A DNA stretch of 64,000 bases. It comes from Octopus sinensis (taxonomy: Eukaryota). Of the stretch, positions 708 to 64,000 are shown piece after piece. Every line of letters begins with the position of its first letter. The stretch's first letter is position 1. The position numbers and the translations under genes were made by a program. The DNA lies in NCBI RefSeq assembly GCF_006345805.1, contig NC_043023.1, positions 16,244,001 to 16,308,000 of the forward strand. The letters run 5' to 3'. The notes under the pieces were generated by a model that saw nothing but the letters and a program-made list of their open reading frames with translations, had not been told where the DNA came from and ran no database searches.

Positions 708-740
708 GCGAACATTCTTAAACTTCTTCTAGAACATACC

Positions 741-761
741 GGCCCTTTTCAGGGCCACCCA
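741..761 (+). terminator. Histone 3' stem-loop (H4)
   Basis: GGCCCTTTTCAGGGCC followed by ACCCA. Confidence 0.97.
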
Positions 762-2384
762 CTTTTTAATTTAAGTCAACTCTTCTAAATCGCGATGTGC
801 TTCATCTTTTTATACCTTAATTTGCAGCTAATGGTATTTAACGCGCCCCTTGGTGGGAACGATCCTTTACGAAATATTTACTTCGGTGGTGTGATTCGGG
901 GGCGATCCTTCAGTATAGCTACACCTCTGAAGATAACCCTTTTCTCCCACCAACCCTAAACCCCTGTATTTATACCGAAGTTACGCCTTTTCGGGGAATG
1001 TGTATAAGTTGAAGGATGGCTTGCCTTTGCAAGCACTAGGGCACAAAGTGTCTAAAGCCAGCTGGAGGAGGTGTCTTCCTGGAGCTACAAATAGGATAGA
1101 CTGGTCACGACTGCGCGCACCGGGACCACGCTTAAGTAGTACCCATATTTCCCTCCGATATTCATGGGATCGGACGGCTGTCTCTGCTAATATCGTTAAT
1201 AAGCTTTGTTATTGCATAATCGGTCCATTGTGCTGAAGACAATCGAAAATGTTGGGAAATTTCATGAAAGTGAAAACCGTTGGCGGTTTTGCTATGTGCT
1301 TCTGTCAGAACTCCGGCCGCATTTGGAGACTGCAATACTTTAATCCGGGTGCAGGGTTGAATCTGTCTACACTTTTTACCGCTTTTTATCTTCATTGTTT
1401 ATTTGTCCTTATTTAATTTTCATTGTAATTTCATTCCTTTATAAATAACTCATCCGATTTCATTGTAAAAAGTTCCATGTTGACCCCATCTGTGTTAATC
1501 CGTATGGATAATAAAGAAATATACACTTTACCGCTATAAGATTTTTTTGTTTTGGTGGCTGTGTGTTAAATACATCTTTACGGTACAGCAGTAGTCCCTC
1601 GTCGCTATATCAGTTATTTAAGCTAACGATTCCTCCGTGGTGGTTTGCATTTAGAAATAGTTTATTCAAATAATAAAGAAATATATAGTATTTTATCAGA
1701 TTTTCGGTGTTGGAGGGATTATTGTACTGATGACAAACAAACCCAGCTGCTAACTGCAGGCGTTACACCTCGACAGGACAACGCCTTTAATGAAATTTCA
1801 CATAAATACCTAATTAAATTCTCAGTCGGTTATTAGTTCAGTTTAAATAAAACATTTCATTCCATGTTCTGTTTAAACTTTATAAATAAATATATTCTTG
1901 CATTATTCATTATTTTGTTTTTAAAAAGGAAATCACACCAAATCTACACAAATGACCACCACCGCGATCACACACACGTGTGTGTGTATATGTGGCTATA
2001 TGTCTGTATTTATTGTATGTGTGTGTATAAGTAGTTATATGCTTATATTCATTATAGTAATATTTGTCTGTTGAAATCCGTTTTAAGGCGGTCAATAGTT
2101 TAATTAAAGATGTATATAATACATGTATATATATATATATACATGTGTATACATTACACATGTATATATATATAATCATGCGATCTTACATAGATAGACA
2201 ATTACAAAGAATGTTATGAGACTTAAAAATTTAGTTGTAATATGACAGAAACGAAAACTTGGCTTACTTTTGCCTTTACGAGAACTTTGTGTGATTCTTG
2301 TTCAATAAAATTAGAAAATATATATAGTGGTTTCTACTTCGGGCTTTATTGTATTGTGAGAAACACCCTAGCTGCTGAATACAG

Positions 2385-3803: not shown

Positions 3804-4227
3804 TTTTCGGTTACGGTGAATTCGAATCTGCAAAATAAATTGGCAAAAAAATAACAATCAACATTTCTAAACTACCACCCGTTTCCTTCATTTTTTACAG
3901 AAATCTTTTAGGAATTAACTTATTCTAAATATGCGGAAAAATACGGACAAAAGTCTCCAAACTATCCTGTAATTACGGTTAAGGTTAGCGCTGGGGGACA
4001 AGACAAAACTGAAGTTGGAGGAGGGATTTCTCAAATTTCAAAAAAATATCGTTAAAAACTTGCAAACATGTTCGTTTATATATTCGCGTGAGTATACAAA
4101 TACCTGTGCTTCGATGTACACAAATTATGTTTCCACCCCCAATCCGTTCTATGGCTGTTGGAGAAATTAACCCCAAAAACATGGATCGCAAATCGCTAGA
4201 AAATCGGAATTAACTTTCATGAGAATG

Positions 4228-4248
4228 TGGGTGGCCCTGAAAAGGACC
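4228..4248 (-). terminator. Histone 3' stem-loop (H2B)
   Basis: Minus strand GGTCCTTTTCAGGGCC followed by ACCCA. Confidence 0.96.
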
Positions 4249-4280
4249 GTTATTCTTCGATGAAGAGAAACGAAGCAGGT

Positions 4281-51425: not shown

Positions 51426-51559
51426 TTATTTTGTAAAATATTTATAGCCAAAGAAAGCGAGTCCGACAAGGATTGCAGCAAGGATCAGTGAGCCAAAACT
51501 GATTCCGACAATCTCAAGTATACTGTAGGTTTTTGGTTTAGGAGGTTCAGGTTTCGGAT
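51426..51559 (-). CDS. Type I membrane protein, last coding exon (Pro stalk, TM, tail)
   Basis: Acceptor TTGCAG at 51560; (N)PKPEPPKPKTYSILEIVGISFGSLILAAILVGLAFFGYKYFTK*; AATAAA on minus at 51247-51252. Confidence 0.85.
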
Positions 51560-52665: not shown

Positions 52666-52914
52666 TCTTTATCTCCAAATCAATTCTTCCAATATTAAGG
52701 TTGTCATCTTCGAATTTCCAAGTCGAACATTTCTCAGTTACTTTTCTGATCCAAAGCTTGGAGGTATCTCCACTGTGTGTTACTTTATAGTCAGTGCCGT
52801 TAGCGCATGTCCTGTCACATTCATATTTATAATTGTCGCACTTCCAAACCACCGGTCGTTTCATGTTCGGTATTGTTATCGAAAGGGTGAGGTTTCCATT
52901 GAGCACAGCAGGTC
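52666..52914 (-). CDS. Type I membrane protein, coding exon 3 (atypical Ig-like ectodomain)
   Basis: Acceptor TTTCTTTATTTCAG, donor GTAAGA, 249 nt, phase 1-1; (G)PAVLNGNLTLSITIPNMKRPVVWKCDNYKYECDRTCANGTDYKVTHSGDTSKLWIRKVTEKCSTWKFEDDNLNIGRIDLEIK. Confidence 0.88.
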
Positions 52915-53212: not shown

Positions 53213-53592
53213 AAATAGAAAATTATTATTTCTAAGTCACTGAACAAGAAACATTCAGTAACATTAATCGAGAGTAAAGATTACTTGCCAACATAATATG
53301 GCAGTCCTAGTTAGGGTGATTGTTACTGTTATCTAGCCCTAGGAAACACTGCCTCCAGTTGGGTATATGACACGCTATCTATGTCCTATGGGATGCTAAA
53401 CTCCCTTGTTTGAAAATATAAGGATGCAGCTAGTGTGTCATATAGCCTGCTGGAGACGATATTTCCTAGGGCTAAGGAACAGTAACAATCGTCCTAACCA
53501 GGACTGAAATATTATGTTGGCAAATAATCTTTACCCTAGAGTACTGTTACTCAATGTCTTTTGTTCAGAGATTTAGAAATAATTTTCTATTT
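53213..53592. repeat. Diverged fold-back inverted repeat, ~170-bp arms (intronic)
   Basis: AATAGAAAATTATT...GCCCTAGGAAA...TATATGACAC versus GTGTCATATA...TTTCCTAGGGC...AATAATTTTCTATT. Confidence 0.75.
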
Positions 53593-53722: not shown

Positions 53723-53939
53723 TAGATGATGTTTCCTAAGACTAAATTTACAGTATCATTCGTCCTAACCAAGACTGCCACATTATGTTGGCAAATATAT
53801 ATATATATATAAGTTCAGCAAAAATTTAGATTCAAATAAATATGGTACTTAATTTAGATGCACCAGAATTTTGTATGGTGTTATCCATAGAAATCCGTGG
53901 GGTGATTATAATGAAAATAAGCAATAAGAATGACTCCGG

Positions 53940-54032
53940 TAATTTGGTACGATCGTTTCGTACTACATCATTTTATTAAATGTTGTAAGTATTACAACAG
54001 TTTTAAAATGCTGAACACTCATCAGCCAATTA
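53940..54032 (-). ncRNA. Type I hammerhead ribozyme motif, sense to the host pre-mRNA
   Basis: TAATTGG-CTGATGA-G[long stem II with TGTTGTAA/TTACAACA]C-GAAA-CGATCG-TA-CCAAATTA; intact core, palindromic helix III. Confidence 0.75.
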
Positions 54033-54293
54033 TAGAGGTTTTCTGTTAATACAAAAATTTTCATATCACGTGGCAACATTATAGAGAAGGTAGATATATA
54101 GACAAAGATGTGGATTTTAATTTTAAGAACGTATGATGTAGTGGAACAACCAAATCTTAGTACCTCATATGTTCTTAAAATTTAAATCCACATCTTTGTC
54201 TATATATCTACCTTCTCTATAATGTTGCCACTTGATTTGATAACTTTTTTATTAATGGAAAACCTCTATAATTGGCTGATGAGTACTCAGCAT
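54008..54293. repeat. Fold-back inverted repeat, ~125-bp arms
   Basis: ATGCTGA..ACTCATCAGCCAATTATAGAGG...AAGAAC versus GTTCTT...CCTCTATAATTGGCTGATGAGT..TCAGCAT. Confidence 0.85.
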
Positions 54294-54409
54294 CTTATAG
54301 AGGGATTAGGCTATTATCAGCTCCCGGAAAAGATTTTAACAGGATACTTTTAGAGATGATGAGGACAGCAGTAAAGAAGAAGCTGGATTTAGGAAGAACT
54401 GTTCATGTG

Positions 54410-54680
54410 GAGATCAAACCGCCACTCTTTGTATCATTGTAGAGCAAAGCGCAGAGTGGAATGCACTCTATCTGCGACAATTTCATCTCAATCGAAGAAG
54501 AGGGGCCTTCTCCGTCCGGGTTGCGGATCCGTGGAATAAGCTGCCGGACGAGATAGTGAAGATGCTGACGACTGCTCGGTTCAAAGTCTCCCTTGACCAC
54601 AAATGGCCTGAACTCTTTGCATGAACACCACCCTGTACATAACTCCATGTCCCCCTAAATGGCATTGCTTTTTGCTTTTT
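54410..54680 (+). mobile_element. CR1-like LINE 3' fragment
   Basis: RRGAFSVRVADPWNKLPDEIV...FKVSLD motif. Confidence 0.65.
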
Positions 54681-55185: not shown

Positions 55186-55224
55186 CACTTTGGGTGATAT
55201 TATACTTTTGTGCCCTTGACAAAT
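55186..55224 (-). CDS. Type I membrane protein, coding exon 2 (39-nt mini-exon)
   Basis: Acceptor TTTTCATCTTTTACAG, donor GTAAAT, phase 1-1; (Y)LSRAQKYNITQS(G); needed because skipping it joins T+GA into a stop. Confidence 0.8.
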
Positions 55225-56695: not shown

Positions 56696-56741
56696 AGACA
56701 AATGTTACAAACAGTAAGCAGAACAAGATCCATTTAGCCAT
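56696..56741 (-). CDS. Type I membrane protein, coding exon 1 (signal peptide)
   Basis: Acceptor TTTTTTCAG at 56745, ATC-ATG-G start context, MAKWILFCLLFVTFV, donor GTAAGT at 56695. Confidence 0.85.
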
Positions 56742-60362: not shown

Positions 60363-60743
60363 AATGGTAGAAATTGATCAGGCATGCAATATTATGATGT
60401 GTCGATCGTCAGTAGTTCTGACGATAAAAATTTGTTGTTATAATTGCATAATGCAGGATGTGAAAGAGGAAAAATGCATGAAGTTTTAAGGAGATATTTA
60501 TTTCCCGTTAGAGAGAAAGGCATGTGTAGTGCATGAATGTGCAGAGATAGCATTTGTGTGTGTATGAATCAAGTGTGCAGATGCATGCGCAAGGCTGTGA
60601 AGAAAGGTGCATGCGTGTGTCTATGCAACAATACAAACATTTTCAAAGTGAACAAAAAAAAATGTACATTCAAAATATGAATAATAATAATAAGGAACAT
60701 TCAAAAAGATATGCAAATGGATTTAGCTGCTTTAGTGAAACGA

Positions 60744-62498
60744 ATCGTGGAATAATTTGTGCAACATGGAATGTGCTTCGTGGAATGTGTGCAACGTGGA
60801 ATATGTGCAACACAGAATGTGCTTTGTGGAATGTGTGCAACACAGAATGTGCTTTGTGGAATGTGTGCATCGCGGAATATGTGCAACACAGAATGTGCTT
60901 TGTGGAATGTGCTTCGTGGAATATGTGCAACACAGAATGTGCTTTGTGGAATGTGCTTCGTGGAATATGTGTAACGCGGAATATGTGCAACACAGAATGT
61001 GCTTTGTGGAATGTGCTTCGTGGAATATGTGTAACGCGGAATGTGTGCAACGCGGAATATGTGCATCGTAGGATGCACTTCATGGAAGATATGCATTGCA
61101 GAATGTGTGCATCGCAGAATGTGCAACGTGGAATATATGTATTGCGGAATATGTACATCAGGGAATATGTGCATCGTGGAATATGTGCAACGTGGAATAT
61201 ATGTATTGTGGAATATGTGCATCAGGGAATGTGCTTTGTGGAATATGTGCATCGTGGAATGCGCTTCGTGGAATATGTGCAACGTGGAATATATGTATTG
61301 CGGAATATGTGCATCAGGGAATATGTGCATCGCAGAATGTGCTTCGTGGAATATATGCATCGGGGAATGTGCTTTGTGGAATATGTGCATCACAGAATGT
61401 GCTTTGTGGAATATATGCATCGGGGAATGTGCTTTGTGGAATATGTGCATCACAGAATGTGCTTCGTGGAATATGTGCATCGGGGAATGTGCTTTGTGGA
61501 ATATGTGCATCACAGAATGTGCTTTGTGGAATATGTGCAACGTGGAATATATGTATTGCGGAATATGTGCATCAGGGAATATGTGCATCGCAGAATGTGC
61601 TTCATGGAATATGTGCATCGGGGGAATGTGCTTTGTGGAATATATGCATCACAGAATGTGCTTCGTGGAATATGTGCATCGCAGAATGTGCTTCGTGGAA
61701 TATATGCATCGGGGAATGTGCTTTGTGGAATATATGTATTGTGGAATATGTGCATCAGGGAATATGTGCATCGCAGAATGTGCTTCATGGAATATGTGCA
61801 TCGGGGGAATGTGCTTTGTGGAATACATGCATCACAGAATGTGCTTCGTGGAATATGTGCATCGCAGAATGTGCTTCGTGGAATATATGCATCGGGGAAT
61901 GTGCTTTGTGGAATATATGTATTGTGGAATATGTGCATCAGGGAATATGTGCATCGCAGAATGTGCTTCATGGAATATGTGCATCGGGGGAATGTGCTTT
62001 GTGGAATATATGCATCACAGAATGTGCTTCGTGGAATATATGCATCACAGAATGTGCTTTGTGGAATATGTGCATCACAGAATGTGCTTCGTGGAATATA
62101 TGCATCACAGAATGTACTTCGTGGAATATGTGCATCGTGGAATATGTGCATCGTGGAATATATGCATCACAGAATGTGCTTTGTGGAATATGTGCATCAC
62201 AGAATGTGCTTTGTGGAATATATGTATTGTGGAATATGTGCATCGCAGAATGTGCTTCGTGGAATATATGCATCACAGAATGTACTTCGTGGAATATGTG
62301 CATCGTGGAATATGTGCATCGTGGAATATGTGCATCGGGGAATGTGCTTTGTGGAATATATGCATCGGGGGAATGTGCTTTATGGAATATGTGCATCGTG
62401 GAATGCACTTCATGGAATATGTGCAACGTGGAATATATGTATTGTGGAATATGTGCATCAGGGAATATGTTCATCGCAGAATGTGCTTCGTGGAATAT
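60744..62498 (+). repeat. Minisatellite of 14- and 16-bp monomers with a 183-bp higher-order repeat
   Basis: GGAATATGTGCATCRC / AGAATGTGCTTYGT monomers; GAATATGTGCATCAGGG recurs at 61561, 61744 and 61927. Confidence 0.95.
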
Positions 62499-64000
62499 AA
62501 TAAAATAAGCAATAATAAAATAAGCAAAAATAACAAACTTAGCTGAAAATAGTGTCCTTTGTCTACAGCTGAAAGTGAATAGATGTGCATGCAAATAAAA
62601 AGAGTTGCTGAAAGTCTATGTGAGAGACTTACGTCCATGCAAAAGTTCACAAACCATGCAGGCTTTGTACATCAGGATGAGATGAAAAGCGTGTGTGTGC
62701 TGAAAAGGTTGCATGTGCGGGCTTCCATATTTTCTTCCAGTTAGTTTCTTGGCATGTAAGCGAATACCTTGTGCGTCGGCTGTGTTGCATTGCAGCGAAG
62801 TGCATCGTAGATTGCATTGCAGAATAGTGCTTCCTGTAGCAGATCGATGGACGGTGCATCATGGTGGTGTCGAAGGTTGTCATTCATTTTCCTTTGGGTT
62901 AGCGACTGTAGATGGTCCAGTTCTTTAATTCGAATCAGCATCTAGCATGAAAAGGTATTATTTCTCTTTACACGGGTTCACCAAATTGTTGGTAACATAG
63001 GTTCAGAAGGCAGCCAATCTTTTTCCACGGGCTCGCCAGTTTCATCATCATCATCATCATCATCATCGTTTAACGTCTGTTTTCCATGCTAGCATGGGTT
63101 GCACCAGGCTCCAGTCTTATCTGGCAATGTTTCTACAGCTGGATGCCCTTCCTAATGCCAACCACTCCGTGAGTGTAGTGGGTGCTTTTTACATGCCACC
63201 TGCACAGGCGCCAGGCGAGGCTGGCAACGGCCACGGTCGTATTGGTGTATTTTACGTGCCACCGGCACGGAAGCCAGTCGAGGCGGCGCTGGCTTGCAGT
63301 TAGTCTTTGTGAAGGCTACAATGCTCTTGTTCGGGGCCACAAGTTGTAACGGGTATATTTTTATTAGACTATTTGTAACGATAAAATTTTTAGTTGAAGT
63401 TGAGGGTCAGTAATTGTAACAGTAGAAATTGATTAGTAAACAATATTATGATGTGTCGATGAAAATTTGTTGTTATAATTGCATACTGTTGGATGTGAAA
63501 GAGGAACAATGCATGAAGTTTTAAGGAAATATTTATTTATTGTTACATTACCAATAACTTGCATCGACGAGCAGGTTTTGAAAAATCCAAAAGCATGCGA
63601 AGTAAAGTTTGTGATTGTGTCCTCTTCATTGTTTAGTAGTAAATACAGAGAGAGAGATAGAATGATGTTGTAAGAGAACAGAATTAGAGCTAGAGAGAGT
63701 TGTAGGGTGTGGGACGTTGTCTCACAGTTGCTGACAATAAACTTCATTTCTCCCTCTGAACAAGGTTTTAGCTGGTCAGCCAGACTTTGTTCTCACTGAG
63801 TTATCATTGTAGTGGCTAACTTGTTGAGTTATCACCGAAGTGACTGAACTTGTTGAGTTATCACAGGAGTTGACTTACTGATTTTTGCTTGGGGTGTTCT
63901 TGCTTTTATAACTAACCAGAGGGATAGATATATCATAGATTTAGTTGGTGGTTTTGTTATCTCTATTCTAGCTTTTGGTGAAGTAGAAAAGGTTAGAAAG

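What the first reader, a model, noticed from the sequence alone, without database searches (positions are those of the whole stretch)
53940..54293. Sense-strand intronic hammerhead ribozyme with an upstream antisense arm covering its core
Seen: in the intron between coding exons 2 and 3 of the membrane-protein gene, the transcribed (minus) strand reads UAAUUGG-CUGAUGA-[~60-nt stem II]-GAAA-CGAUCG-UA^CCAAAUUA, with an intact core and predicted cleavage between 53948 and 53947. The earlier-transcribed arm (~54293-54165) is complementary to ~54135-54008, which includes CUGAUGA and the 5' strand of stem I. Established: Penelope-like elements carry minimal type I hammerheads with palindromic helix III that can cleave as dimers; long dsRNA is an ADAR substrate and coleoids edit heavily. 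Inference: the fold-back may keep the ribozyme off, and editing or unwinding could release it, coupling dsRNA state to host transcript cleavage.
Basis: partly seen in the sequence, partly recalled or inferred. Interest (0 to 1): 0.72.

Follow-up and report, generated by a model that had tools for sequence, protein, structure and literature searches.

The report
Penelope retrotransposon end folded back
The hammerhead (self-cutting RNA) motif and the mirror-image arm in front of it are both real, but they are two head-to-head pieces of the end repeat of an abundant Penelope-like jumping gene that landed in an intron; the ribozyme is predicted to stay locked off and is likely not a regulated switch.

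Summary
Observation confirmed: type I hammerhead core on the minus strand, cut site 53948/53947, 59-nt helix II, palindromic helix III, and a 137-nt, 91% antisense arm upstream. Both are pieces of one interspersed repeat (523 exact copies of a 23-mer). Longer copies join it to an RT + GIY-YIG ORF with Hydra-clade motifs, so it is the terminal repeat (pLTR) of a Penelope-like element. Head-to-head two-armed insertion at (TA)n is the published footprint of these elements and is common in this family; here the second arm is cut short. The hammerhead fold covaries across the family, but this copy has a derived stem II change. The arm buries the active fold by about 44 kcal/mol, and simulated editing does not free it. 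Most host paralogs examined lack the insertion. The editing-gated switch is unsupported; no editing or cleavage data were obtainable. One oddity: the two arms carry different subfamily alleles. The scan found Hydra-type long-stem hammerheads and two-armed insertions before, elsewhere in this genome, and mismatched arms in other genomes.

The parts
53812..54145 (-). Main arm: 5'-truncated pLTR of a Hydra-type Penelope-like element, subfamily A alleles at its outer sites; ends at the family's distal fixed end
53940..54032 (-). Type I hammerhead motif: stem I, core 54025-54019, 59-nt branched helix II, GAAA, palindromic helix III, predicted cut 53948/53947
53812..53906 (-). 'Tail' of about 100 nt between the family's two fixed 3' ends
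53795..53811 (.). (TA)n target tract; a TA tract lies at the same place in paralogs without the element
54141..54160 (+). Spacer: element-derived, in the orientation of the inverted arm, separated from it by a 22-nt deletion relative to family copies; short microhomology at the junction
54161..54297 (+). Inverted arm: second pLTR piece, subfamily B alleles, stops inside helix II about 96 nt short of the nearer fixed end (no GAAA, no cut site)
54298..54465 (+). LINE reverse-transcriptase fragment abutting the arm (RTE-like; label recalled from motif resemblance, no Pfam match at cut-off)
55186..55224 (-). Host coding exon 2
52666..52914 (-). Host coding exon 3 (multigene family, 73 matches in the genome)
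56696..56741 (-). Host coding exon 1 (hydrophobic N-terminus)
51426..51559 (-). Host coding exon 4 (hydrophobic C-terminal segment, stop)

Best explanation
This is a short head-to-head insertion of the hammerhead-bearing end repeat (pLTR) of an abundant Penelope-like retrotransposon with Hydra-clade motifs, sitting at a TA repeat in an intron; the antisense arm is likely a by-product of how these elements integrate, and the ribozyme is predicted to be silent in the host pre-mRNA. Shown: family membership, linkage to an RT + GIY-YIG ORF on the same strand, two fixed 3' ends, frequent two-armed copies, truncation of this arm. Inferred: the element's endonuclease cut the (TA)n tract, both DNA ends primed cDNA (one from each fixed start), the two 5'-truncated cDNAs were joined head to head, a deletion likely removed the outer part of the second arm, and the host gene then duplicated. 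In the element's own life cycle the hammerhead likely processes tandem transcripts as a dimer or with protein help. In the host intron the arm is made first and would zip up the core before GAAA is transcribed. The 137-bp duplex is a plausible passive ADAR substrate that leaves with the intron.
For: 1927 first-look candidates, 40 scored; 523 exact matches of a 23-mer over GAAA and the cut site, control 0. Upstream of longer copies: RT (66 relatives at E<=1e-20) and GIY-YIG (Pfam PF01541 22.8 bits, cut-off 22.6). The pLTR runs directly into the ORF start in 7 of 12 loci, 4 of them near-identical duplicates. Head-to-head arms at 19 of 55 sites, 15 of 19 pairing one arm at each fixed end; 5 of 55 have an antisense arm over the core. 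20 of the first 100 listed exact matches lie in -/+ pairs within 1.5 kb (counted by eye). The same architecture is described in PMC8557442 and PMC3846280; oppositely oriented hammerhead pairs in PMC4209133. Active fold +43.5 kcal/mol with arm, +8.4 to 8.6 without, family median +4.4; the extra penalty comes from a C-to-U change at 54015 that paralog L070 lacks. Element absent from 11 of 14 fetched paralog-region stretches. Metazoan PLE hammerheads are inactive as monomers and weak as dimers; the Anolis one needs its protein.
Against: The insertion is kept in three chromosomal paralogs plus an unplaced duplicate with an intact core. Against L070 it is less diverged than intron 1 (7/469 vs 27/800, Fisher p 0.048); against L069 it is not (2/486 vs 5/800, p 0.72). 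The three arm differences nearest the core are all G-U wobbles on the transcribed strand, though two are subfamily alleles. The arms differ in subfamily, so a single one-template event does not explain it fully. The 'empty' paralogs carry a different LINE piece, so loss by deletion is not excluded. Only 1 of 26 subfamily-B loci was head-to-head. No target-site duplication can be read. Energies are predictions.
Confidence: 0.88

Rival explanations
1. Same origin, but since co-opted: the duplex gates the ribozyme, and editing or a helicase releases it to cut the host pre-mRNA.
For: Sense orientation in a spliced intron; intact core; arm covers the core; retained in paralogs; borderline low divergence against one paralog (p 0.048).
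Against: 29-44 kcal/mol barrier under A-to-G simulation, 13-40 under A-to-non-pairing; two core adenosines lie in the duplex and were hit in 11 of 30 runs at 25% editing (that this inactivates is recalled); helix III has a 2-nt loop and no partner hammerhead exists in the window; derived stem II weakening; 4 of the 7 changes against L070 fall in the hammerhead and L070 has a 17-nt deletion in the arm; most paralogs examined lack it.
Confidence: 0.03
2. The fold-back was assembled from two sources: two different template RNAs in one integration, two successive insertions at one site, or later gene conversion of one arm.
For: Arms differ at 3 of 4 subfamily-diagnostic sites; 15 of 17 other two-armed sites are concordant. 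The arm is 3 changes from the subfamily B majority and 7 from A; the main arm is 8 from A and 10 from B. The arm has a 99% match elsewhere in the genome but 91% to its partner.
Against: One case, three sites; intermediate haplotypes exist (L030, L129, L137), so a mosaic parent is possible; the innermost site is shared by both arms. This refines the best explanation and does not replace it.
Confidence: 0.45
3. A non-autonomous retrozyme, SINE or MITE-like hairpin with no coding parent.
For: The local copy is short and non-coding; one locus has a short tandem array (L022).
Against: Sequence is continuous with the 3' UTR and the ORF start of a coding element; 5' ends are ragged; the arms are not terminal inverted repeats.
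Confidence: 0.04

Closest known systems
Hydra clade of C-terminal-endonuclease Penelope-like elements, incl. Hydra-1_Obim (Craig et al. 2021, PMC8557442; abstract, passages, section 11 and supplement rows read)
   Same: RT then GIY-YIG; DKT motif; CxCX5C linker; CxxC and CxH in the endonuclease; (TA)n target; type I hammerhead at the 3' end; inverted 5'-truncated copy; one-sided tail.
   Different: A different family from Hydra-1_Obim, whose listed hammerhead has 7-bp stem II strands with an 8-nt loop against a 59-nt branched helix II here. Tail about 100 nt, not 30-40. 3' UTR about 1.3 kb. RWI rather than RWK. The ORF starts after the distal fixed end.
Metazoan PLE hammerheads (Cervera and de la Pena 2014, PMC4209133; parts 1-2 of 4 read)
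   Same: Type I, in pLTRs, palindromic helix III too short for a monomer, pairs on opposite strands 100-700 bp apart, mostly in truncated copies.
   Different: Helix II far longer; helix I of 7 bp with a bulge; not a minimal motif; no unpaired base between the core and stem II.
PAc (Poseidon of Anolis; Frangieh et al. 2024, PMC11167929; parts 1-2 of 4 read)
   Same: Two fixed reverse-transcription starts downstream of the hammerhead that define the tail; AT-rich targets.
   Different: Other clade; there the ORF begins inside the hammerhead and the starts lie within the ORF, here both ends lie upstream of the ATG.
Non-LTR retrozymes (bioRxiv 10.64898/2026.07.22.740005; part 1 of 5 read)
   Same: Type I hammerhead related to PLE pLTRs.
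   Different: Those are non-coding tandem units; this is a fragment of a coding element in inverted arrangement.

Membership tests
EN+ Penelope-like element | Single ORF with RT and C-terminal GIY-YIG endonuclease on the hammerhead strand | tested here: met
   In family copies, not the window. The copies read are broken by stops or frameshifts; P0001 itself has no Pfam RT match at cut-off.
EN+ Penelope-like element | pLTR before and after the ORF (partial tandem) | tested here: met
   pLTR upstream of the ORF start in L086-89, L091-93; downstream in L032 and others; both ends not read in one copy
EN+ Penelope-like element | Inverted 5'-truncated copy and one-sided tail | tested here: met
EN+ Penelope-like element | Target-site duplication | tested here: inconclusive
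   TA tract on one side, truncation against a LINE fragment on the other
Hydra clade | DKT motif and CxCX5C linker | tested here: met
Hydra clade | CxxC and CxH around conserved E and N; no CCHH motif | tested here: met
   read by eye from the translations
Hydra clade | RWK motif near the N-terminus | tested here: inconclusive
   RW kept, third residue I; most relatives aligned have RWK
Hydra clade | (TA)n insertion preference | tested here: met
Hydra clade | Placement in the RT phylogeny | not tested
   no tree with the published reference proteins was built
Type I hammerhead ribozyme | Core CUGANGA / GAAA / NUH with three helices | tested here: met
   helix III closes only as a dimer
Type I hammerhead ribozyme | Self-cleavage | not testable with these tools
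   needs in vitro assay
Non-LTR retrozyme | Non-coding tandem units each with a hammerhead, no ORF | tested here: not met
Editing-gated ribozyme switch | Editing of the duplex and release of the active fold | tested here: inconclusive
   folding simulation argues against release; only contigs were available, which cannot show editing

The most novel reading that the evidence does not exclude
A Penelope fold-back has been co-opted as a dsRNA-gated ribozyme: ADAR editing or helicase unwinding frees the hammerhead, which pairs in trans with an abundant family transcript or a paralog's pre-mRNA and cuts the host intron, tuning a subset of a fast-evolving membrane-protein gene family.
Probability: 0.03. 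Interest if true: 0.75.

Novelty: new member of a known kind. Interest (0 to 1): 0.15.

Why it matters
As it stands, little: it is one of hundreds of copies of a known kind of element. Two modest uses. Two-armed PLE insertions create ready-made long duplexes in introns, a source of editing substrates in a lineage that edits heavily. The subfamily mismatch between the arms is one more data point on whether the two arms are copied from one RNA or two, an open question in PLE integration. If the switch were real it would be a natural link between RNA editing and ribozyme cleavage that I did not find in print (titles and abstract starts only).

Tried and rejected
Rfam: no hammerhead at gathering or E-value thresholds; miRNA-family hits are generic hairpin matches below cut-off. 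First clade guess, Neptune, dropped after reading the Hydra definition. A suspected frameshift in host exon 4 was my misreading; the ORF is intact. Low paralog divergence over the element as proof of selection: a similar low level holds over intron 1. 'Arms diverged by independent mutation' was revised once subfamily B was sampled. Sequencing runs: no RNA holder listed on record; contigs of four runs gave no information on editing or cut ends. The protein atlas gave no answer for the host protein; Pfam gave none at cut-off, so the host's 'Ig-like' look is my recollection only. The sequence look-up in earlier findings was blank. Supplements of PMC4209133, PMC11167929, PMC3846280 and the preprint were not read and may list similar long-helix motifs.

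Full report
Observation. The minus strand carries the motif as described: stem I 54032-54026 with 53947-53940, core 54025-54019, a 59-nt helix II region, GAAA at 53959, an 8-nt palindrome and a GUA triplet with the cut between 53948 and 53947. The inverted repeat is 137 nt at 91% with a 20-nt spacer and folds at z -23.9. The host gene has four coding exons and an intact 155-aa frame with hydrophobic ends. Contigs of two runs guessed to be RNA join exon 2 to exon 3 across this intron; the paralog is not resolved. Rfam does not detect the hammerhead. Covariation over 12 family copies, chosen to include divergent ones, supports it: 92.4% paired, 7 pairs with double changes, slid controls at most 55%. 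That shows selection on the element lineage, not on this copy.

What it is. The 211-nt query gave 1927 first-look candidates in the 2.7-Gb genome, of which 40 were scored; a 23-mer over the cut site occurs 523 times. Copies have ragged 5' ends and two fixed 3' ends about 100 nt apart, at TA repeats. Upstream lies a 3' UTR of about 1.3 kb, then a GIY-YIG domain and an RT with 66 relatives among proteins of 523-2000 aa, all on the hammerhead strand. Downstream of the distal end the sequence runs into the ORF start in 7 of 12 loci, four of them duplicates. The motifs DKT, CxCX5C, CxxC and CxH and the TA target match the Hydra clade as defined in PMC8557442 section 11; RWK is RWI here, no tree was built, and it is not Hydra-1_Obim.

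The arm. Of L001-L068 I dropped 11 as the window's own insertion, its paralogs or duplicates; 2 of the other 57 gave no hit. 19 of 55 were head-to-head, 15 of these 19 with one arm at each fixed end, and 5 of 55 had an antisense arm over the core. These loci are best hits with 1.5-kb flanks, not a random sample: among 26 subfamily-B loci only 1 was head-to-head, while 20 of the first 100 exact matches form -/+ pairs (by eye). This is the inverted-copy-plus-tail structure of PMC8557442 (passages) and PMC3846280 (passages); PMC11167929 ties the tail to two reverse-transcription starts. The window's main arm ends at the distal site. Its partner would be expected to end at the nearer site but stops about 96 nt short against a LINE fragment, so it likely lost its own GAAA and cut site by deletion. 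The spacer is element sequence too.

Would it act as a switch? Forcing the hammerhead fold costs 43.5 kcal/mol with the arm and 8.6 without. 35 intact family rows (some duplicates) have a median of 4.4; the window's higher value follows a C-to-U change at 54015 absent from paralog L070. Random A-to-G changes leave 42 kcal/mol at 25% and 29 at 100%; making A non-pairing leaves 35 at 25% and 13 at 100%, with the hammerhead's own bases protected. These are crude bounds, since inosine is not modelled. Helix III has a 2-nt loop, and the window holds no second complete copy. Published metazoan PLE hammerheads were inactive as monomers and weak as dimers (PMC4209133), and the Anolis one needed protein.

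Host context. Exon 3 has 73 matches genome-wide. Of 14 stretches fetched around close paralogs, 3 hold this insertion and 11 hold no family sequence. Four gene copies share the flanking LINE mosaic without the element, though with a different LINE piece, so they are empty sites or deletions. Against my reading: divergence over the element is lower than over intron 1 for L070 (7/469 vs 27/800, p 0.048), not for L069 (p 0.72). But 4 of those 7 changes are in the hammerhead and L070 has a 17-nt deletion in the arm.

An oddity. Two subfamilies are marked by linked sites. The inverted arm is B at all four covered sites; the main arm is A at the three outer ones and B at the innermost. 15 of 17 other two-armed sites are concordant. 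Two templates, successive insertion, conversion or a mosaic parent all fit. Earlier notes of this scan report the same pattern in other genomes; they are unchecked and not independent support.

Verdict. A real hammerhead motif and a real duplex, both ordinary consequences of a Penelope-like insertion: new member of a known kind, interest 0.15. Cleavage and editing remain untested. Searches for a described editing-gated hammerhead or a two-template PLE mechanism listed 5 and 2 papers, none on the topic by title and abstract start. PMC13282606 (passages) reports Penelope-like families in an octopus genome and has no occurrence of 'ribozyme' or 'Hydra' in its main text.

Noticed in passing
window 52666-52914 vs L069, L070, L078: Bins over host exon 3 differ by 6-12% between paralogs whose neighbouring intron bins differ by 0-5%: possible diversifying selection or conversion in a 73-match family of small single-pass membrane proteins with no Pfam match.
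   Followed up: partly
window 54161-54297 vs 54004-54140: The two arms belong to different subfamilies at 3 of 4 diagnostic sites.
   Followed up: yes
window 53225-53387 / 53421-53583: A second inverted repeat in the same intron (163 nt, 82%), with a related partial copy at 53750-53797; unrelated to the PLE and present in paralogs without it.
   Followed up: no
L044, L048, L032 (RT-EN linker): Long asparagine-rich low-complexity insert between RT and endonuclease, like the N-rich inserts described for rotifer Penelope.
   Followed up: no
L101, L104, L108, L110, L123, L124, L126: Subfamily B has a 3' UTR about 600 nt shorter than the subfamily A reference.
   Followed up: no
L022:1481-2327: Short tandem array of hammerhead-bearing units about 195 nt apart, the arrangement in which dimeric cleavage could occur.
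   Followed up: no
window 736-781 (+) and 4208-4253 (-): Two histone 3' UTR stem-loops above the Rfam cut-off.
   Followed up: no
window 60551-62550: Long tandem repeat with open frames on both strands.
   Followed up: no
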